A stretch of 64,000 nt of DNA, from assembly GCA_002498525.1 (NCBI GenBank), contig DAHR01000008.1, positions 3,089-67,088 of the forward strand, in the 5' to 3' direction. Shown here piece after piece: positions 28,494-40,637 of the stretch. The translations under genes and the position numbers were made by a program. Numbering within the stretch: position 1 is the first letter of the stretch; every line of letters begins with the position of its first letter. Below the pieces are notes generated by a model, which worked only from the letters and a program-made list of their open reading frames with translations, ran no database searches and was not told the origin of the DNA. Origin of the DNA: Euryarchaeota archaeon UBA58. Its GTDB lineage: Archaea; Thermoplasmatota; Poseidoniia; Poseidoniales; Thalassarchaeaceae.

Positions 28494-30041
28494 TCACAGG
28501 CTTTCGCGGAGTTTTCGGGCGCGCTCTTCGAGCGGCGCACCGACCTCTCTGAGTAGTCTCGAGCGAAGCGCTTCGTGCAACCACATTCCATCTTCGAGTT
28601 CGAGCATCAAGCCTCGGGTCAACAGGTCTTCTGGTGGAGCGCCGTCGTAATTGGCGGCTTTGGCCAATTTTTCCCATGGAACTGGCCGATCCGCGACGGC
28701 GAGAAGTGCTAGTAATTCGTGCCGGTCCTCGGGCAGCACATCGAGGATCTCCTCGTCCAAGAAGCGCAGCCAATCGTCGTGCAGTGTCTTGCCGTAGAGT
28801 TCGAGGAGTTCAACCGCCAAGGGGTGACCTCCAGTGGCGCGGTGAATCTCCTCGGCAGGAGCTTCTGATGGCAGTTGGATGGTCGAGAGCCACTCGGCCA
28901 CCTCCTCGAGCGATAGCCCTGTGAGGCTCAATTCCACTACCCGCCCGCGTGTGTGAACGTCTCTGCGGTCATAGAATGCGAGGTTTGTGCGAGAAACCAG
29001 CAGGAGGCGGAGCGAGGTTGCTTCGGCGACCTGAAGAAGTGCCCCGAAGAGGTGATTTCCTTCGGTGCCGATATTGTGCACGTCATCGAGGATGACGAGA
29101 TTCGATTCCTCCGCTTCGCCGCAATGTCCCTCCTCATCGAGCAGGTGTGCGATCAGGCGACGGCGGTAGAGGTCGATGTCGAGGCGCGCACCGGGCTTCA
29201 GCGGCAGGGCCTCGAGAACATTGTATGGGTCATCGCCATCAGTATCAGAACTGATGCCAAGGCGATGCAGCAGACTGGTTGCGATGCCCAGAGGACTATC
29301 CCAAGGTTGGCATGGATAATACATCACTGCGAGGTTGGGGGAGGAATCCAGATTATGGTCGAGCCAGTGACTCACAAGGGTTGTTTTGCCACAACCCGCG
29401 ATGCCCGAAACCACTGCCATCGCTGCCCTTCCAGCAAACCACTCATCGAGGATTTCGACCTCATTCTCGCGCCCATGAACGGTGCGTGTCTCAGGCGGGC
29501 GCGTGTGATAGGTCGAATGAGCCCCAGCGAGCAATTTCAGCGAGCCGGGCTTCGACTTCTCCTCCACCTCGCTGCGAACGATCGCCCCGAAACGGATGTC
29601 CCCAAAATTCAGCACAGCCTCGTGTTGAGCATGCATCAGCACCTGTAGCAGAGTCAGACCAGTCTCTAATTGCTCACCAGCAGAATCGGCGCGAACCTCG
29701 AGCAATTCTCCATCTCGCGCGCGAAGCAGAACCTTGGTTTCGCGTAAAGCCTGTAATCGCCGGCCGATCTCCTCGCGACCATCATCGGTCAATTGCCAGG
29801 TCTTCTGCCGACGCTCCTCGCCACGAACCACCCGAGTGTGTTCACTGACCAATCCGTTCAATGCGAAATCGCGCATCGTGCGAGAAACATTGGGAGGATG
29901 CAGAGCACAGATTTCAGCAATACCGGGTCGAGTCACCTCGCGACTCACCAGATAGTGATCCGCCTGGTGGTCCTGCTCCCACAGATGCAACAAGATTCGG
30001 TCTGCAACGGCGATGCTGACCTTGGTCGAGGGAGCAGCCAT
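28494..30041 (-). CDS. wHTH-NB-ARC (STAND/AP-ATPase class) NTPase, putative regulator
   Basis: N-terminal MarR-like winged helix (ITRPGIAEICALHPPNVSRTMRDFALNGLVSE). Walker A GIAGCGKTTLV, Walker B LVILDDVHN, LLLVSRTN, GLPL-type motif TGGHPLAVELL, terminal winged-helix (LLALLAVADRPVPWEKL). Start at ATG 30041, preceded by GGAGGAG. Confidence 0.7.
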   Translation of the reverse strand: MAAPSTKVSIAVADRILLHLWEQDHQADHYLVSREVTRPGIAEICALHPPNVSRTMRDFALNGLVSEHTRVVRGEERRQKTWQLTDDGREEIGRRLQALRETKVLLRARDGELLEVRADSAGEQLETGLTLLQVLMHAQHEAVLNFGDIRFGAIVRSEVEEKSKPGSLKLLAGAHSTYHTRPPETRTVHGRENEVEILDEWFAGRAAMAVVSGIAGCGKTTLVSHWLDHNLDSSPNLAVMYYPCQPWDSPLGIATSLLHRLGISSDTDGDDPYNVLEALPLKPGARLDIDLYRRRLIAHLLDEEGHCGEAEESNLVILDDVHNIGTEGNHLFGALLQVAEATSLRLLLVSRTNLAFYDRRDVHTRGRVVELSLTGLSLEEVAEWLSTIQLPSEAPAEEIHRATGGHPLAVELLELYGKTLHDDWLRFLDEEILDVLPEDRHELLALLAVADRPVPWEKLAKAANYDGAPPEDLLTRGLMLELEDGMWLHEALRSRLLREVGAPLEERARKLRESL

Positions 30042-36973: not shown

Positions 36974-37085
36974 CACCACAGAGCACACTGAGTCACAGGT
37001 TTTGATTTCCAGGTAGTGAATCAACAGCTTCCTTCGCGGCCACTGCGCGAGGCTCTCCGTGTTCTCTGTGCCTCTGTGGTTGATT
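36974..37085 (+). repeat. Intergenic imperfect-palindrome element, copy B
   Basis: Left arm ACACCACAGAGCACACTGAGTCACAGG (36974-37000). Right arm CTCTCCGTGTTCTCTGTGCCTCTGTGGTTGATT (37053-37085). Nearly identical to the copy A right arm. The left arm matches the reverse complement of 58478-58509. Confidence 0.65.
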
Positions 37086-37124
37086 ACGCGGAAGTTCGAT
37101 AATCGAGGGTTCCGAGGGAGGGTC

Positions 37125-38180
37125 GTGTCAAAGCCTTCTCTGGAGAGCCTCGCCTCATTCATTCGCGACCTCGACAGCAAATGCACACTAGCTCGTTTGA
37201 GCGAGAATCACATCTTCGCCGGCTCGCACGGGGGAGAACTCTGCTGTTGGTATGCAGAATCAGGAGATCTGCGATGGCGCGCTGAAGTGAGCGGTCCGAT
37301 TTCTGATATCGCAATCGACGCCGGACGAATCTACGCCACCGCTTCCGCTTCGCTGCATGCCTTTGACGCTGAGTCAGGCCAGTTGTTGTGGAGTCGCGAA
37401 CTCGAAGGAGGGAGTGATTTCGTACAGGCTTGGAGTGGTGTGGTTTGGGCGTCTTCATCGGTTTACGAATTGGAAATCGATGACTTCATCGAGGCGACGA
37501 TCTGGCGCTTCGATGACTCTGGCGAGCAGCTTGAGCGATGGACTATCAACGAGCGCCCGTGGCATTTCGGATTGCACGAAGATGGGGGGGTTCTACTCGG
37601 GTTGGGTCGGCCTCGGTGTGGATTTCTGCGGATTCGGCCAGGCGAGAAGGCCGAACATTTCGAATTCGCCACAGACAGTCCGGTGACCTGCGGTGCTTGC
37701 GGTTCTGCGGGTCGTTTCCTGCTCGGTCATAGTGATGGAAGCATCAGTTCTGTCGGAACTGATGAGGAAATTGAGCAATATGTCGAATCCTTGGTCACGA
37801 CCATCGCCGGAACGGATTCAGGTTTCATCTCCGGCCATGAGGATGGCTCAATCTGGTTCGACGGTGGGGTGAGAAATGTCGATGGCACTGTAGATGCAAT
37901 TGCGGATCTGAGTGGTGATGGCTGGGCATCGAGTTGGGACGGCAGCGAATCCCGAGTCTCTCTGCTCGCTGCCGAGGCGAGAGAATTCTCACATGATGCG
38001 AGAATCCGACACATGGATTCTCACCAGAATCGACTCATATTCGGCGATGACCTCGGAAAAGTCATTCTACTCGAGTCAGCAGTCGTCAAACGCCGTCTGG
38101 AAGAGGATCTTTCCTCAGCACCGGAAAATGACCGGAATCAGGCGCTGAGAGAGCGTTTAAGGATGTTAAGAAACAGTTGA
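37125..38180 (+). CDS. PQQ-like / WD-like beta-propeller repeat protein
   Basis: Repeated blades with ...ESGDLRWRAEV..., ...ESGQLLWSREL... Start moved to GTG 37125, preceded by GGGAGGG. The track start at 37059 lies inside repeat copy B. Confidence 0.5.
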   Translation: MSKPSLESLASFIRDLDSKCTLARLSENHIFAGSHGGELCCWYAESGDLRWRAEVSGPISDIAIDAGRIYATASASLHAFDAESGQLLWSRELEGGSDFVQAWSGVVWASSSVYELEIDDFIEATIWRFDDSGEQLERWTINERPWHFGLHEDGGVLLGLGRPRCGFLRIRPGEKAEHFEFATDSPVTCGACGSAGRFLLGHSDGSISSVGTDEEIEQYVESLVTTIAGTDSGFISGHEDGSIWFDGGVRNVDGTVDAIADLSGDGWASSWDGSESRVSLLAAEAREFSHDARIRHMDSHQNRLIFGDDLGKVILLESAVVKRRLEEDLSSAPENDRNQALRERLRMLRNS

Positions 38181-38197
38181 TGCCCGGTTCGGAACGC

Positions 38198-38232
38198 ACT
38201 GGAAATTAACATCCACAACCCCTATTTCCAGT
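38198..38232. repeat. Inverted repeat ACTGGAAAT-N17-ATTTCCAGT (hairpin or paired protein-binding boxes)
   Basis: Arms are 38198-38206 and 38224-38232, perfect 9-bp complements. Begins 18 nt after the stop of the beta-propeller gene. The minus-strand copy is followed by AGGGG. Confidence 0.5.
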
Positions 38233-38361
38233 CCACAGTACCTCATTCAACGAAACATTTAAGCGCCTCCCCCGCACAGACCAAAGTTGCCGCTTCAGGG
38301 GAGTGGTGTGGGGCGCGCTTCGGCGCAAACCGCGGGCCACAGAACCGAACCCCAAACTTGG

Positions 38362-38400
38362 GGTGGTAGAACCGGAATCCGAAAGGAGGAAGGGGAACGA
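38362..38400 (+). repeat. Direct repeat unit R1 (GGTGG.AG.GAACCGGA..CG.AAGGA.GGGGA)
   Basis: GGTGGTAGAACCGGAATCCGAAAGGAGGAAGGGGAACGA. Aligns with R2 and R3. Confidence 0.55.
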
Positions 38401-38441
38401 TCGAACCTGTCTGAAGGGCAGGGGAGATACGGTCGAACTGA

Positions 38442-38480
38442 GGTGGAAGGAACCGGACGAAAGAAAGGGGAGAGAAGCAA
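38442..38480 (+). repeat. Direct repeat unit R2
   Basis: GGTGGAAGGAACCGGACGAAAGAAAGGGGAGAGAAGCAA. Aligns with R3 with two single-base indels and a few substitutions. Confidence 0.6.
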
Positions 38481-38620
38481 CGGGGAAAGCTGGGGAAAAC
38501 ACAACCGCACCGCTTCGGCGGGGAGAACGCAACCGTGCCAGCAGACCAGACCGGAGATGTATGTGTGAAGGGCGAGAACCAGAGATGGGACAGACCTGAG
38601 GCAGATTCGTGGGAAACGAA

Positions 38621-38660
38621 GGTGGAAGAGAACCGGACGCAAGGAAGGGGAAAGAGAAAC
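38621..38660 (+). repeat. Direct repeat unit R3
   Basis: GGTGGAAGAGAACCGGACGCAAGGAAGGGGAAAGAGAAAC. Confidence 0.6.
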
Positions 38661-39035
38661 TGGAGGGAAACACGGCGGGAACGAGAGCGCGGAGACGCGT
38701 GGAGGACCGGCATCGATTCTGAAGAACGAACTGGTGAGAGCCAGGGAGGGAAACAGGAACGAAGAAGCGGGGAGCGATCCCAGTGGAATCGGAAACGGCG
38801 AAAGGGCTCTTCGGAGTCAAGAAGTCATCTACCCGGAGAAAAGAACCGCCTTCGGGCGGGGAAAAGAACCGGACCCTGCGGAGTCAGCAGGGGGGATGCT
38901 CCCCCATGTGCAGAACCCCTGCTGCTCCCACCTTGTACCAAAGTACGGCATCGGCCCATTCCATCAGATTATCAATCATTGCGGAGCCTCTCGCTCCGCT
39001 GACTTCAGTTTCGAGTGGCTCCAAGAATCGCCGTC

Positions 39036-40637
39036 TCACTGCTTCGGGCCGATCATCTCATTCGGTCTGACCCATTGATCGAACTGGTCGTTCGTCAGCA
39101 ACCCGAGATCCAGCGCAGCAGCGCGCAGAGTCAATCCCTGCTGATGCGCGTGCTTGGCGATCTTGGCCGCGCTGTCGTAACCGATGTGATTGTTCAGCGC
39201 GGTAACCAACATCAATGAATTCTCGAGGTGCGAACGAATCGCATCCTCATTGGCAGAAAGCCCGTCGACGCACTTGTCGGAAAAGCTCCTGCAGGTGTCG
39301 GCGAGTAGTCGTGTGCTGTGCAACAGATTGTGGATTATCATCGGCTTGTAGACGTTGAGTTCGAAGTTGCCTTGGCTGCCTCCAACGCTGATTGCAGTGT
39401 GATTTCCCAAGACTTGGCAACAGACCATCGTCATCGCCTCCGCTTGAGTCGGATTGACCTTGCCTGGCATGATGCTCGAGCCTGGCTCGTTGGCCGGGAG
39501 GGACAATTCGCCAAATCCACAGCGTGGTCCCGATCCCATCCAACGGATGTCATTGGCGATCTTCATCAGGCTCACAGCAAGCGTGTTCAAGGCGCCTGAT
39601 GCCGCTACTATCGCATCGTGTGCGGCGAGTTGGGCGAATTTGTTCTCAGCACTGATGAATGGCAGTCCTGTCTTCTCACCGATTCTGTCGGCGACCTTGT
39701 CGGCGAACTCGGGATGGGTGTTGAGACCGGTTCCAACGGCCGTTCCTCCGAGTGCGAGTTCGAGAAGGTCGTCGAATGCTGCTTCAATTCTGCGGATGTC
39801 GGCTCCGAGCATGGCGACGTAGGCGCTGAATTCCTGTCCGAGGGTGAGTGGGACGGCGTCCATCAAGTGGGTTCTGCCGATCTTGACGATGCCTGAGAAC
39901 TCCTCGGATTTGGAGGCCAGTGCTGCGCGTAATGCCCTGAGCGAGGGAAGCAATCTGTGGTGAATCTCCTCCGCAGCGGCGATGTGCATGGCCGTTGGGA
40001 AGGTATCGTTGCTGGATTGGCCCCGATTAACGTGGTCATTCGGGTGGACGGGGGTTTTGCTTCCGAGGTCTCCGCCAGCCATCTCAATCGCTCGGTTGGC
40101 GATGACCTCGTTGGCGTTCATGTTGGTCTGGGTTCCCGAGCCGGTCTGCCAGATTCTGAGGGGAAAATGCTCGTCGAGCTCGCCCGATATCACTTCGTCG
40201 CAGGCCGATGTGATGAGGGCGCCGACCTGTGGGTCTAATTGGCTGAGGCTGACATTGATCTCAGCTGCCGCTTGTTTGAGGATTCCGAAGGCGCGAATTA
40301 TCGAGGTTGGCATCTTGTCGTCGCCGATTTCGAAATTAATCAGCGAGCGGGCGGTCTGGGCGCCGTAATAGCGGTCGGCGGGAACTTGCAATTCGCCCAT
40401 CGAGTCTTTCTCGACGCGCACCTCGCCGGATTCGGCTGCAGCGCTCCTAGTTTCGACCGCGCGCTCGAATCGCGTAGGGATGGTCTCGGCTTCGAGGCCT
40501 TGATAGATCATTTTGGCGATGGTTACGGAGCGGCCTTGCTCTCTGCCCTTGCCGACACGGCGGTCAAGCTTCCTCGCCAACTCCTCTGGAATGCTGATAC
40601 TGATGATTCTGCGGTCGCCCACGCGGTGTCTTGCCAT
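39036..40637 (-). CDS. fumC: Class II fumarate hydratase (FumC) with in-frame N-terminal ribbon-helix-helix (CopG/Arc-like) extension
   Basis: Residues ~73-533 are FumC ([43 protein letters not shown] signature). Residues 1-~50 ([23 protein letters not shown]...[15 protein letters not shown]) follow the RHH strand-helix-helix pattern. There is no stop between the two parts. Confidence 0.85.

What the first reader, a model, noticed from the sequence alone, without database searches (positions are those of the whole stretch)
38181..39035. 855-bp gene-free, T-poor spacer between two convergent genes, packed with repeats and UUCG hairpins: candidate large ncRNA or protein-sponge locus
Other intergenic gaps in this window are under 400 bp (mostly under 230 bp). 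This gap is 855 bp and lies between two stop codons (beta-propeller gene stop at 38180, fumC stop at 39036), so it needs no promoter.

The + strand is strongly purine-rich and T-poor. As a result the ORF track shows overlapping open frames in all three + frames and two - frames, and their translations are low-complexity (E/G/R/K on +, S/P/F/L on -). That does not fit the acidic proteome seen elsewhere in the window, so none looks coding.

Structural signals visible on the + strand:
- Four hairpins closed by C(UUCG)G-type tetraloops: 38315-38326 GCGC-TTCG-GCGC, 38510-38521 CCGC-TTCG-GCGG, 38805-38818 GGCTC-TTCG-GAGTC, 38846-38859 CCGCC-TTCG-GGCGG.
- A 9-bp stem CAGCAGGGG/CCCCTGCTG (38885-38924) enclosing a GGGGG-ATGCT-CCCCC hairpin.
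- About 13 GGGG tracts, which gives G-quadruplex potential.
- More than 20 GGA motifs, many of them in the recurring contexts GAACCGGA and GGGGA.

UNCG loops are a hallmark of stable RNA. On the opposite strand the loops would read CGAA, which is not a recognised stable tetraloop class, so this argues for a + strand transcript. The GGA/GAACCGGA density recalls protein-titrating RNAs such as CsrB/RsmZ, but that comparison is an analogy only. I found none of the conserved RNase P (GGAAAGUCC) or SRP helix-8 (CCGGAAGG...AGCA) motifs.
Basis: partly seen in the sequence, partly recalled or inferred. Interest (0 to 1): 0.75.

Follow-up and report, generated by a model that had tools for sequence, protein, structure and literature searches.

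The report
New large structured RNA in marine archaea
The "empty" 855-bp gap holds the gene for a roughly 650-nucleotide, intricately folded non-coding RNA that is conserved across the abundant ocean archaea called Marine Group II, matches no known RNA family, and has an unknown function.

Summary

- **Organism.** The window comes from a Marine Group IIb archaeon (Poseidoniales).
- **Conservation.** The arrangement beta-propeller gene -> spacer <- fumC is kept in dozens of species, and the spacer never holds a consistent ORF.
- **Structure.** I aligned 50 non-redundant sequences from genomes and marine metagenomes. They support 137 base pairs in 38 helices. 90% of cells are paired, against 79% in shuffles. 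91 pairs carry compensatory double changes, against 35-41 in slid controls.
- **Strand and transcription.** G-U pairs outnumber A-C cells about 6:1, which points to the + strand. A BRE/TATA-like element lies exactly 30 nt upstream of the RNA in 94 of 102 distinct loci, which points to independent transcription.
- **Known families.** Rfam 15 gives no hit, even at E <= 10, so the RNA is not a recognisable RNase P RNA or SRP RNA.
- **Evolution.** The RNA changes by gain and loss of GNRA-capped hairpin modules. One 26-nt hairpin unit is present in 1, 3 or 5 copies within a single population, and assemblies break there.
- **Breadth.** Divergent homologues of 480-1250 nt that are not purine-rich occur in other Poseidoniales lineages.
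The CsrB-like sponge, the G-quadruplex idea and "needs no promoter" are not supported.
- **Function.** Unknown. My best guess is a stable RNA-protein (RNP) scaffold.

The parts
38197..38233 (.). Conserved upstream boxes: CACTGGAAAT (38197-38206, +) and its inverted partner AACCCCTATTTCCAGT (38218-38233; on the - strand it reads ACTGGAAATAGGGGTT). They lie about 55-90 nt upstream of the RNA start. Their sequence resembles an archaeal mini-ORB plus G-string.
   Evidence: One or two such boxes are present in 96 of 102 distinct upstream regions, across all lineages. Some lineages have direct copies, which argues against a simple hairpin. The Pyrococcus mini-ORB is 'TTCCAGTGGAACT' (PMC1904270). G-strings are described in PMC1868953. 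This is the only such site in the 64-kb window. Its function was not tested.
38251..38263 (+). Archaeal BRE/TATA-like promoter element CGAAAC-ATTTAAG (TATA-like TTTAAG at 38258-38263).
   Evidence: A TTTAWR hexamer starts exactly 30 nt before the TGCCGC motif in 94 of 102 distinct loci and is preceded by a purine-rich CGAAAGG-type BRE (alignments). The assignment as a promoter rests on general knowledge of archaeal promoters and was not tested experimentally.
38289..38960 (+). The ncRNA gene. The predicted 5' end is near G38289. The conserved core ends at CUCCCACC (38932). The conserved tail CGGCCCA lies at 38952-38958. The true 3' end is uncertain and lies somewhere between about 38935 and 39010.
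   Evidence: Order-wide conservation and covariation. CM R1 hit at 38799-38935, + strand, 128.7 bits. No Rfam hit. No conserved ORF.
38289..38307 (+). 5' hairpin GCCGCUUC-AGG-GGAGUGGU, the most conserved element of the whole family.
   Evidence: 8 pairs, 98% of cells paired, 3 pairs with double changes, one invariant G-U pair. The same hairpin occurs in the divergent lineages L017, L027, L044, L053, L054, L061 and L065.
38308..38333 (+).
   Evidence: 9 pairs, 7 with double changes. The loop is UUCG in 34 of 50 sequences, otherwise UUAG, UCCG or others.
38334..38336 (+). Invariant GGG, predicted to pair long-range with CCC 38874-38876 (in GGACCC) and so close the central multi-branch body. The alternative partner is 38931-38933.
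   Evidence: RNAalifold on two alignments. All columns are invariant, so covariation gives no support either way (helix 3).
38344..38367 (+). Hairpin ACC..ACCCCA-AACU-UGGGGU-GGU. It is preceded by the conserved single strand CCACAGAA.
   Evidence: Helices 4 and 5: 9 pairs, 5 with double changes.
38372..38399 (+). GAAA-capped hairpin module, which is also the 26-nt variable-number tandem repeat unit (GGAATCCGAAAGGAGGAAGGGGAAC at 38374-38398; one copy here).
   Evidence: 1 copy in the window and L002, 3 in L200, 5 in L001, L097, L126 and L173. Contigs L003-L006, L110 and L213-L219 end inside or at the array. Helices 6 and 7 covary. A 26-nt unit is not a multiple of 3.
38401..38427 (+). Hairpin UCG..CUGUC-UGAAG-GGCAG..GA.
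   Evidence: Helices 8 and 9: 8 pairs, 7 with double changes. For example, one pair is CG in 24 sequences, UA in 23 and UG in 3.
38430..38553 (+). Optional sub-domain closed by helix 38430-38434/38549-38553.
   Evidence: The closing helix has 5 pairs, all with double changes, and 100% of cells paired. The inner part is deleted in 14 of 50 sequences. The cap is GCAA, UUCG or UUAG.
38630..38655 (+). Module B: GAACCGGA-CGCAAG-GAAGGGGA. It is a GNRA-capped hairpin with a 3x3 purine internal loop and is 88% identical to module A, 180 nt upstream.
   Evidence: Repeat family D1. The loop-closing pair flips from C-G to G-C in 5-6 sequences. Extra copies are inserted in several lineages.
38672..38711 (+). 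Conserved stem, internal loop and GAGA-capped hairpin: CGG-GAACGAGA-GCGCG(GAGA)CGCGU-GGAGGA-CCG. The G-A-rich asymmetric internal loop looks like a kink-turn.
   Evidence: Helices 23-25: 11 pairs, 7 with double changes. The loop sequences are nearly invariant. The kink-turn assignment is by eye only. The loop has 4 nt where a canonical K-turn bulge has 3.
38720..38819 (+). Three further hairpins: 38720-38755, 38760-38791 and 38804-38819.
   Evidence: Helices 26-30 all carry double changes. 73-95% of cells are paired, which makes this the weakest-aligned part.
38833..38872 (+). It is preceded by the invariant UCUACCC (38826-38832).
   Evidence: Helices 33 and 34: 11 pairs, 7 with double changes. 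The cap is UUAG, UUCG or GNRA.
38877..38932 (+). 3' terminal stem-loop: UGCGGAG/CUCCCA, then CAGCAGGGG/CCCCUGCUG, with the invariant C-rich apical loop UCCCCCAUGU (38900-38909).
   Evidence: Helices 35-38. CM R1. The same architecture, with a C-rich loop, occurs in the divergent lineages.
38981..38999 (.). Hairpin GCGGAGC-CUCUC-GCUCCGC between the RNA core and the fumC stop codon. It is unassigned: it could be the RNA's 3' end or the fumC 3' UTR.
   Evidence: Conserved only in the high-GC lineages (window, L008, L018, L020, L021) in the alignment.

Best explanation
The gap contains one independently transcribed gene, on the + strand, for a highly structured non-coding RNA of about 650-680 nt (about 38289 to about 38960). 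The RNA belongs to a family I could not find described. The family is conserved across Marine Group II archaea (order Poseidoniales) and is nearly always placed just downstream of a PQQ-like beta-propeller gene.

**Shown**
- The fold has about 38 helices supported by covariation.
- The ends are conserved: a 5' hairpin, and a 3' stem-loop that presents an invariant C-rich loop.
- The body is built from GNRA- or UNCG-capped hairpins joined by A/G-rich strands. This is why the RNA is purine-rich and T-poor in this lineage.
- Size changes by duplication and loss of hairpin modules, both between lineages and within one population (the 26-nt VNTR).

**Inferred**
- Transcription starts about 30 nt after a conserved BRE/TATA-like element.
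- Upstream boxes resembling origin-recognition boxes (ORBs) may regulate transcription.
- Mechanism, my best guess at about 0.4: the RNA acts in trans as a stable architectural or RNP RNA. Its sequence-conserved repeated modules (AACYGGA-CGNAAG-RAAGGGGA) and its kink-turn-like loop would serve as protein-docking or tertiary-contact sites. The neighbouring beta-propeller protein is a candidate partner.
For: - **Synteny and composition.** The propeller -> spacer <- fumC order and the purine-rich spacer are conserved in at least 23 species whose propeller proteins are only 26-59% identical.
- **Not coding.** No ORF is consistent in strand or frame. The 26-nt VNTR unit is not a multiple of 3.
- **More members.** The metagenome scan raised the total to 105 distinct full-length sequences, which fall into 51 clusters at 92% identity.
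- **Covariation, automatic model.** 74 RNAalifold pairs: 95.5% of cells paired against 84.6% in shuffles; 52 pairs with double changes against 33.7 in shuffles (0 of 500 shuffles reach this) and 16-21 in slid controls.
- **Covariation, manual model.** 137 pairs: 90.0% paired against 79.1%; 91 double-change pairs against 66.8 in shuffles and 35-41 in slid controls.
- **Strand.** 9.0% of paired cells are G-U. The same pairs read on the other strand would be only 82.5% canonical.
- **Promoter.** TTTAWR lies at a fixed 30 nt upstream in 94 of 102 loci.
- **Termination.** A T run of at least 4 follows within 90 nt of the core in 68 of 97 loci.
- **No known family.** No Rfam 15 family matches in the window or in 17 relatives' loci, including E-value-threshold scans (max E 5-10) of the window and L046 spacers and of six divergent loci.
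- **Placement.** CM R1 finds one copy per locus, always at this position.
- **Breadth.** Divergent homologues share the same ends, promoter and upstream boxes.
- **Propeller link.** The propeller gene is immediately upstream in all 95 loci that hold enough sequence. This includes L065, where fumC is not adjacent.
Against: - I obtained no transcript evidence. Public contigs that carry the region are genomic and simply break at the VNTR.
- The 3' end is not defined in this high-GC genome, which has no T run of at least 5.
- The minimum-free-energy z-score is not better than shuffles.
- The function is inferred only from anatomy and gene neighbourhood.
- The propeller link is not universal. L063 has the propeller gene abutting fumC with no RNA between them. 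Distant propeller homologues in another context (L211, L220, L221) have no RNA downstream.
- I could not scan whole Poseidoniales genomes. So I have not shown that canonical RNase P RNA and SRP RNA exist elsewhere in them.
- Absence from Rfam and from the papers I could search does not prove the RNA has never been noted.
Confidence: 0.82

Rival explanations
1. It is a highly divergent version of a universal RNA, either the RNase P RNA or the SRP (7S) RNA of Poseidoniales, that current models do not recognise.
For: The family is present across the order and has a conserved core with variable periphery, as expected of a housekeeping RNA. No RNase P or SRP RNA was found in the 64-kb window. I could not check the rest of any genome. 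There are short resemblances: ACAGAACC at 38340-38347, and CCCGGAAG in the apical loop of L054.
Against: There is no hit to RNaseP_arch, Archaea_SRP or any other Rfam model, even in E-value-threshold scans (max E 5-10) of spacer-sized stretches (window, L046) and of six divergent relatives' loci. The GGAAAGUCC-type CR-I motif and the GGAA...AGCA helix-8 motif are absent from the alignments. The 5' and 3' ends form separate hairpins rather than a terminal P1 or helix-5 duplex. The ACAGAA-like string varies (ACAAAA, ACAACA) and lies near the 5' end, not the 3' end.
Confidence: 0.04
2. It is a protein-titrating sponge RNA. Many copies of a short motif would sequester an RNA-binding regulator, and copy number would set the capacity.
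For: The sequence-conserved module AACYGGA-CGNAAG-RAAGGGGA recurs 2-6 times per RNA. GAACCGGA occurs 4 times where 0.08 is expected. The number of modules differs between lineages and within one population (1, 3 or 5 copies of the 26-nt unit).
Against: GGA density equals the expectation from composition (41 against 35 +/- 5). The motifs are embedded in a fixed architecture of 38 helices with unique conserved 5' and 3' domains, unlike the simple repeated stem-loops of CsrB/RsmZ. From my own knowledge, not tested here, CsrA/RsmA is a bacterial protein family not known in archaea. Divergent family members are not purine-rich and lack most modules, yet they keep the core.
Confidence: 0.08
3. It is not a trans-acting RNA but a cis element: a long structured 3' UTR of the propeller mRNA, or an antisense or terminator buffer between two convergent genes.
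For: It always follows the propeller gene on the same strand and lies between convergent genes in most loci.
Against: T runs typical of archaeal terminators lie directly after the propeller stop codon, upstream of the boxes and the promoter. A fixed-distance BRE/TATA-like element precedes the RNA. The conserved 5' hairpin begins at the predicted start. In L065, other genes separate the RNA from fumC.
Confidence: 0.04
4. The locus is part of a replication origin or an Orc1/Cdc6-controlled element. ORB boxes would recruit the initiator, and the purine-rich transcript would act at the DNA level, for example through an R-loop or as a primer, rather than as a folded RNA.
For: Boxes matching (TTC)CAGTGGAAA(T/A)AGGGGT lie upstream in all lineages. 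They resemble the mini-ORB and G-string (PMC1904270 and PMC1868953). In MGIIb the non-template strand is G/A-rich. The PolD large-subunit gene lies about 4 kb away.
Against: There are only one or two boxes and no cluster flanking an AT-rich unwinding element. There is no GC-skew switch and no other boxes in 64 kb. No orc1/cdc6 gene is adjacent; the nearby AAA protein is HTH plus AAA_16. PMC1904270 reports that a single mini-ORB does not give stable Cdc6 binding in vivo. Extensive compensatory changes show selection on the RNA fold. Purine richness is specific to one lineage.
Confidence: 0.04
5. It is non-functional sequence: a decayed minisatellite, a pseudogene remnant, or a low-complexity protein gene.
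For: There is an internal degenerate repeat and a polymorphic VNTR. Gene callers place ORFs of 155-204 aa here.
Against: Blocks are invariant between species whose flanking propeller proteins are only 26-59% identical. There are 91 pairs with compensatory changes. ORFs are inconsistent in strand and frame, and indels are not multiples of 3.
Confidence: 0.01

Closest known systems
OLE (ornate, large, extremophilic) RNA of Bacillota (Rfam RF01071)
   Same: About 600 nt. Intricate multi-helix fold with highly conserved single-stranded stretches. Function unresolved. The gene is kept next to the gene of a protein partner (oapA). It contains a kink-turn bound by a protein (PMC9723947, listed).
   Different: OLE is bacterial. 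There is no sequence or structure similarity and no Rfam hit. The RNA here is archaeal, evolves by module duplication, and has no demonstrated protein partner.
GOLLD and ROOL RNAs (large ornate RNAs found by metagenome comparison; they form RNA-only multimers, PMC12286853, listed)
   Same: They are large and rich in tetraloop-capped helices. They were discovered from environmental sequence and are of unknown function. Many GNRA loops could mediate tertiary or quaternary contacts.
   Different: They are bacterial or phage-associated and often lie near tRNAs. No homology was detected (Rfam scans). Self-assembly is pure speculation for the RNA here.
Archaeal RNase P RNA (RF00373) and archaeal SRP RNA (RF01857)
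   Same: To my knowledge they are the only other non-ribosomal structured RNAs over 300 nt that are broadly conserved in archaeal lineages. They have a conserved core with lineage-specific peripheral helices, and archaeal RNase P carries L7Ae-type K-turns.
   Different: There is no covariance-model match at any threshold. The defining motifs and the terminal 5'-3' duplex are absent (see the membership tests).
CsrB/RsmZ-type sponge RNAs
   Same: A short motif is repeated, and the number of copies varies.
   Different: GGA is not enriched beyond composition and is not presented in hairpin loops. The overall architecture is fixed and complex. The host is an archaeon.
rRNA expansion segments
   Same: Size changes arise by insertion or duplication of capped hairpins at fixed points of a conserved core. 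UNCG and GNRA caps interchange freely.
   Different: The RNA here is a separate single-copy gene with no similarity to rRNA and no rRNA hit in Rfam.

Membership tests
Archaeal RNase P RNA | Match to the family covariance model (RF00373 or any RNase P model). | tested here: not met
   No hit at the gathering threshold in the window or in 11 relatives' loci. No hit in E-value-threshold scans (max E 5-10) of the window and L046 spacers and of six divergent relatives' loci.
Archaeal RNase P RNA | Conserved regions CR-I (GGAAAGUCC-like) and CR-V, which form the P4 pseudoknot, plus a P1 helix joining the 5' and 3' ends. | tested here: not met
   No such conserved strings appear in the alignments of 23-50 sequences. 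The ends form independent hairpins. The only long-range helix is an invariant GGG/CCC.
Archaeal RNase P RNA | Cleavage of pre-tRNA 5' leaders. | not testable with these tools
   This needs biochemistry.
Archaeal SRP (7S) RNA | Match to the model; helix 8 with a GNAR tetraloop and AGCA-type loops; an Alu-domain 5' fold. | tested here: not met
   No Rfam hit. The motifs are absent from the alignments. The size is 480-1250 nt against about 300 nt for SRP RNA.
CsrB/RsmZ-type protein sponge | Many GGA motifs, exposed in hairpin loops or single strands, in excess of chance. | tested here: not met
   41 GGA against 35 +/- 5 expected. The conserved GGA triplets lie in CCGGAC stems and internal loops of GNRA hairpins.
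CsrB/RsmZ-type protein sponge | A cognate CsrA/RsmA protein in the organism. | not tested
   Only 64 kb of the genome is available. From my own knowledge, CsrA is not known in archaea.
OLE / GOLLD / ROOL / HEARO / raiA and other large ncRNAs in Rfam | Match to the family covariance model. | tested here: not met
   No hit in any Rfam 15 scan.
Structured ncRNA gene (generic) | A conserved secondary structure supported by compensatory substitutions above controls. | tested here: met
   0 of 500 shuffles reach the observed values on all five measures. The slid controls give less than half the double-change pairs.
Structured ncRNA gene (generic) | Own promoter and terminator, and a discrete transcript. 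| tested here: inconclusive
   A BRE/TATA-like element sits at a fixed distance in 94 of 102 loci, and T runs follow in 68 of 97. No transcript data were available. The Logan and ENA contigs found are genomic.
Archaeal replication origin (oriC) | Several ORB or mini-ORB repeats flanking an AT-rich unwinding element, usually next to orc1/cdc6. | tested here: not met
   Only one or two ORB-like boxes. No other copies in the window. No skew switch. The nearby AAA ATPase is not Orc1.
G-quadruplex-forming element | An excess of G>=4 runs, free to associate. | tested here: not met
   13 runs against 8.7 +/- 2.8 expected. Several runs lie in covarying helices, for example 38360, 38520, 38858 and 38890.
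tRNA / tmRNA-like element | A cloverleaf or tRNA-like domain detectable by ARAGORN. | tested here: not met
   No tRNA or tmRNA in the window.

The most novel reading that the evidence does not exclude
This would be a new class of large, ornate RNA that is a core component of Marine Group II archaea, comparable in standing to OLE, RNase P or SRP RNA. It would be the RNA subunit of a previously unknown ribonucleoprotein, with the co-located beta-propeller protein as partner. Its invariant C-rich loop and repeated GNRA modules would carry out a specific molecular task such as recognition, assembly or catalysis. Its expression would be tied to the cell cycle through Orc1/Cdc6-type ORB boxes upstream of its promoter.
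Probability: 0.2. Interest if true: 0.95.

Novelty: categorically new. Interest (0 to 1): 0.86.

Why it matters
Marine Group II archaea (Poseidoniales) are among the most abundant archaea in the surface ocean, and none has been cultured. Beyond rRNA, tRNA, RNase P RNA and SRP RNA, I know of no large structured RNA that is conserved across a whole archaeal order.

An RNA of 0.5-1.25 kb with about 38 covariation-supported helices, invariant loops and a conserved promoter would be a rare addition to the short list of large "ornate" RNAs of unknown function. To my knowledge it would be the first that is specific to archaea. RNAs of this size and conservation have repeatedly turned out to be ribozymes, RNP cores or self-assembling structures.

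The finding also has practical consequences.
- The 26-nt VNTR inside the RNA systematically breaks metagenome assemblies at this locus.
- Gene callers place spurious ORFs of 155-204 aa here.
- The alignment and model give an immediate way to look for the RNA in metatranscriptomes, and a target for structure determination without any need for a culture.

Tried and rejected
- **Rfam cmscan.** Gathering threshold on the window and on 11 relatives' loci; E-value threshold on the spacer, on L046 and on 6 divergent loci. Only chance hits.
- **ARAGORN.** No tRNA or tmRNA.
- **Tandem Repeats Finder** on the window spacer found nothing, because this genome has one copy of the unit. The VNTR appeared only by comparison with near-identical contigs.
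- **Sigma-70 promoter and intrinsic-terminator scan.** This is irrelevant for an archaeon. The "terminators" it lists on the - strand are the reverse complements of the RNA's own hairpins.
- **Single-sequence folding.** The z-score is about 0 on both strands and is uninformative.
- **Coding hypothesis.** ORFs are inconsistent across species. Rejected.
- **Origin-of-replication hypothesis.** Motif searches, skew profile and Pfam of the nearby AAA protein. Not supported, but the ORB-like boxes remain unexplained.
- **Kink-turn reading** of the 38679-38706 loop and of the repeated modules, by eye. Neither fits the canonical 3-nt bulge plus tandem G-A pairs cleanly, so I left it as "K-turn-like".
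- **Pairing of the 5' hairpin strands with the 3' end**, to make a terminal duplex. No complementarity.
- **Transcript evidence.** I looked up contigs that carry the spurious 155-aa ORF. All are genomic fragments that start at the VNTR and run into fumC.
- **Literature.** Seven searches and one look-up by DOI found no description of such an RNA. The 2009 Nature paper on marine metatranscriptome small RNAs is not held in the library, so I could not check it for overlap.
- **Propeller protein.** It has only a generic PQQ_2 domain. Its homologues are all marine archaeal and unnamed.
Full report
**1. The observation**

The propeller-like gene (37059-38180, +) ends with TGA at 38178-38180. fumC (39036-40637, -) ends at 39036. 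That leaves 855 nt between two convergent stop codons.

The stretch is 13% T and 62% purine. In 200-nt windows across 38300-38900 the AT skew is +0.46 to +0.63 and the GC skew +0.27 to +0.41. A crude ORF tiling shows no other gap above 387 bp in the window.

Against a first-order Markov resampling:
- CUUCGG (4 found, 0.27 expected) and GAACCGGA (4 found, 0.08 expected) are in excess.
- G>=4 runs (13 found, 8.7 +/- 2.8 expected) and GGA (41 found, 35 +/- 5 expected) are not.

Single-sequence folding gives z-scores near zero on both strands.

**2. Whose genome it is**

An exact-protein look-up of the propeller gene returned near-identical marine metagenome contigs. Their neighbours include the large subunit of archaeal DNA polymerase D. 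A fumC-based scan of one genome per species returned Candidatus Thalassarchaeaceae and Poseidoniales MAGs as the closest loci, at 70-84% FumC identity. The window therefore comes from a Marine Group IIb archaeon.

**3. A polymorphic repeat inside the gap**

Comparison with the near-identical contigs showed a 26-nt unit, GGAATCCGAAAGGAGGAAGGGGAAC.
- It is present once here (38374-38398) and once in L002.
- It is present three times in L200.
- It is present five times in L001, L097, L126 and L173.
- A dozen other assemblies end inside or at the array.

The unit length is not a multiple of three, and the unit folds as a GAAA-capped hairpin.

**4. Conservation**

- In at least 23 MGIIb species the order propeller -> spacer <- fumC is kept, although the propeller proteins are only 26-59% identical.
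- The spacer is 620-900 nt, 58-66% purine and 13-22% T, in genomes whose spacer GC ranges from 42 to 62%.
- The longest ORFs differ in strand, frame and length from species to species.
- A MAFFT alignment shows long invariant blocks separated by segments with obvious compensatory changes.
- One metagenome scan with a 3'-end pattern returned 120 loci, of which about 10 are chance hits in coding DNA. This brought the total to 105 distinct full-length sequences, which fall into 51 clusters at 92% identity.

**5. Structure**

RNAalifold on 50 representatives (alignment A1) predicted 74 pairs, 52 of them with double compensatory changes. On that model:
- 95.5% of cells are standard pairs, against 84.6% in column shuffles.
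- All five measures exceed all 500 shuffles.
- Sliding the 3' partners by 1-3 columns drops pairing to 37-49% and the double-change pairs to 16-21.

I then built a fuller manual model of 137 pairs in 38 helices from two alignments. It gives:
- 90.0% of cells paired, against 79.1% in shuffles.
- 91 double-change pairs, against 66.8 in shuffles and 35-41 in the slid controls.

G-U cells make up 9.0% of paired cells. The same pairs read on the opposite strand would be only 82.5% canonical. The fold therefore belongs to the + strand.

Their caps swap among UUCG, UUAG and GNRA between species, as structural caps do. The caps of the repeated modules stay GNRA, and their closing pair flips from C-G to G-C.

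In L042 and L046 the G run becomes GAACAA and pairs with a distal UUGUUC, while the C-rich loop stays unchanged.

**6. Gene signals**

- T runs follow the propeller stop codon in the AT-richer relatives.
- Next come one or two boxes of consensus (TTC)CAGTGGAAA(T/A)AGGGGT.
- Then comes a purine-rich BRE-like CGAAAGG and a TTTAWR hexamer. The hexamer starts exactly 30 nt before the TGCCGC motif in 94 of 102 distinct loci.

By the usual archaeal geometry (my own knowledge), this places the start at about G38289, which is the first nucleotide of the 5' hairpin.

Downstream of the core, a T run of at least 4 occurs within 90 nt in 68 of 97 loci. In this high-GC genome the 3' end is not defined.

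**7. Anatomy**

- **5' end.** Hairpin GCCGCUYC-N3-GRAGUGGU, then a UUCG-capped hairpin.
- **Closure.** An invariant GGG is predicted to close the body by pairing with the CCC of GGACCC near the 3' end.
- **Body.** A series of capped hairpins linked by A/G-rich conserved strands (CCACARAAACCGA, GGUAGAA, GGGAAACAC).
- **Optional sub-domain.** 38430-38553, missing in 14 of 50 sequences.
- **Repeated modules.** Two or more copies of AACYGGA-CGNAAG-RAAGGGGA, a GNRA hairpin with a 3x3 purine internal loop.
- **Internal loop.** A nearly invariant G-A-rich loop around a GAGA-capped hairpin (38672-38711) that looks kink-turn-like.
- **3' end.** UCUACCC, a capped hairpin, then the 3' stem-loop UGCGGAG/CUCCCA with the invariant C-rich loop UCCCCCAUGU.

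Lineages differ mainly by insertion or loss of whole modules.

**8. How wide the family is**

A covariance model of the 3' domain (R1) found exactly one strong hit in each of 27 fumC loci, always at this position. It also gave weak hits in L054, L017 and L053.

Inspection and motif searches showed that these loci, together with L027, L029, L032, L033, L044, L047, L061 and L065, carry clear homologues. The homologues have the same 5' hairpin, the same 3' architecture, the same promoter and the same upstream boxes. They are not purine-rich, and they measure from 495 nt (L065, labelled Poseidoniaceae) to about 1250 nt (L027 and relatives, in which the 3' module is duplicated).

So the family is present in several Poseidoniales lineages from both families, and the purine richness is a trait of one branch.

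The propeller gene lies immediately upstream in all 95 loci that hold enough sequence, including L065, where fumC is not adjacent. There are exceptions:
- L063 has the propeller gene abutting fumC with no RNA between them.
- A distant group of propeller homologues in another context has no RNA downstream.

**9. What it is not**

- **Any Rfam 15 family.** Not RNase P, SRP, OLE, GOLLD, ROOL or HEARO.
- **A tRNA or tmRNA**.
- **A protein gene**.
- **A Csr-type sponge**.
- **A G-quadruplex array**.
- **A recognisable replication origin**.

Seven literature searches and one DOI look-up found no description of it.

**10. What it most likely does**

What is shown is a conserved, independently promoted, intricately folded RNA. 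The rest is inference.

The following features together are the pattern of stable architectural or RNP RNAs such as OLE, RNase P RNA and SRP RNA, not of regulatory base-pairing sRNAs or cis elements:
- conservation across several lineages of the order;
- invariant loops and junction strands;
- repeated modules conserved at the sequence level;
- a K-turn-like loop;
- tight linkage to one protein gene.

I therefore favour, at about 0.4, a trans-acting RNP scaffold in which the modules are docking sites for a protein or for tertiary contacts, with the beta-propeller protein as a candidate partner.

The ORB-like boxes upstream are unexplained. They match the Pyrococcus mini-ORB 'TTCCAGTGGAACT' and the G-string described for archaeal origins (PMC1904270 and PMC1868953). 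They could be a transcription-factor site, or a link to the initiator Orc1/Cdc6.

**11. Verdict**

This is a real, conserved family of large structured ncRNA that I could not find in any database or paper available to me. It is of high interest. Its function is open.

The main caveats are that I have no transcript data, and that I could not scan whole genomes to confirm that the canonical RNase P and SRP RNAs lie elsewhere.

Noticed in passing
window 38197-38233 (and upstream of the RNA in L017, L027, L044, L053, L054, L061, L065, L210): There are one or two boxes (TTC)CAGTGGAAA(T/A)AGGGGT between the propeller gene's T-run terminator and the RNA promoter. They are inverted in MGIIb and direct in some other lineages, and in L210 they form a perfect palindrome. 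They closely resemble the archaeal mini-ORB plus G-string bound by Orc1/Cdc6.
   Followed up: partly
window 40428-40637 (- strand), FumC residues 1-70: FumC carries an N-terminal extension of about 70 aa with a weak ribbon-helix-helix (RHH_1/CopG) match (E 0.006). The extension aligns in most of the Poseidoniales loci returned (53 of 60) and is absent from the bacterial FumC hits. A DNA-binding domain fused to a TCA-cycle enzyme is unusual.
   Followed up: partly
window 37059-37125: The propeller ORF starts at a GTG and is 373 aa long, but homologues are 347-362 aa. The true start is probably about 10-25 codons downstream. The family has only a generic PQQ_2 domain, carries a basic C-terminal tail (…RERLRMLRNS), and was found only in marine archaeal sequences.
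   Followed up: partly
L003-L006, L110, L213-L219 (contig ends at window about 38341-38460): At least a dozen independent public assemblies break inside or at the 26-nt repeat array. This locus is a systematic fragmentation point for assemblies of this population.
   Followed up: yes
L027, L029, L033, L047 (RNA about 1230-1250 nt); L027 sequence printed: In one Thalassarchaeaceae lineage, about 300 nt of the RNA's 3' part, including the terminal GCGGAGG...CUCCCAAC stem-loop, is tandemly duplicated. The RNA therefore carries two copies of its most conserved 3' element.
   Followed up: no
window 38981-38999: A hairpin GCGGAGC-CUCUC-GCUCCGC lies between the RNA core and the fumC stop codon. It is conserved only in the high-GC lineages. 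It is unclear whether it belongs to the RNA's 3' end or to the fumC 3' UTR.
   Followed up: no
L063 (Thermoplasmatota MAG SFB_Oligo_Co_17), downstream of fumC: Here the propeller gene's stop codon lies directly against the fumC stop codon, with no spacer and no RNA. The RNA has either been lost or moved in this high-GC lineage.
   Followed up: no
window 28494-30041 (- strand): A 515-aa protein with an N-terminal Crp-like HTH and an AAA_16/AAA_22 ATPase domain is a conserved neighbour in several lineages (L001, L207, L210). It is not an Orc1/Cdc6 protein.
   Followed up: partly
window 38206-38820 (-), 38535-39002 (+) and equivalents in L001, L002, L207, L210: Gene callers annotate spurious low-complexity ORFs of 130-204 aa inside the RNA gene. 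Such "hypothetical proteins" from this locus are present in public protein collections.
   Followed up: yes
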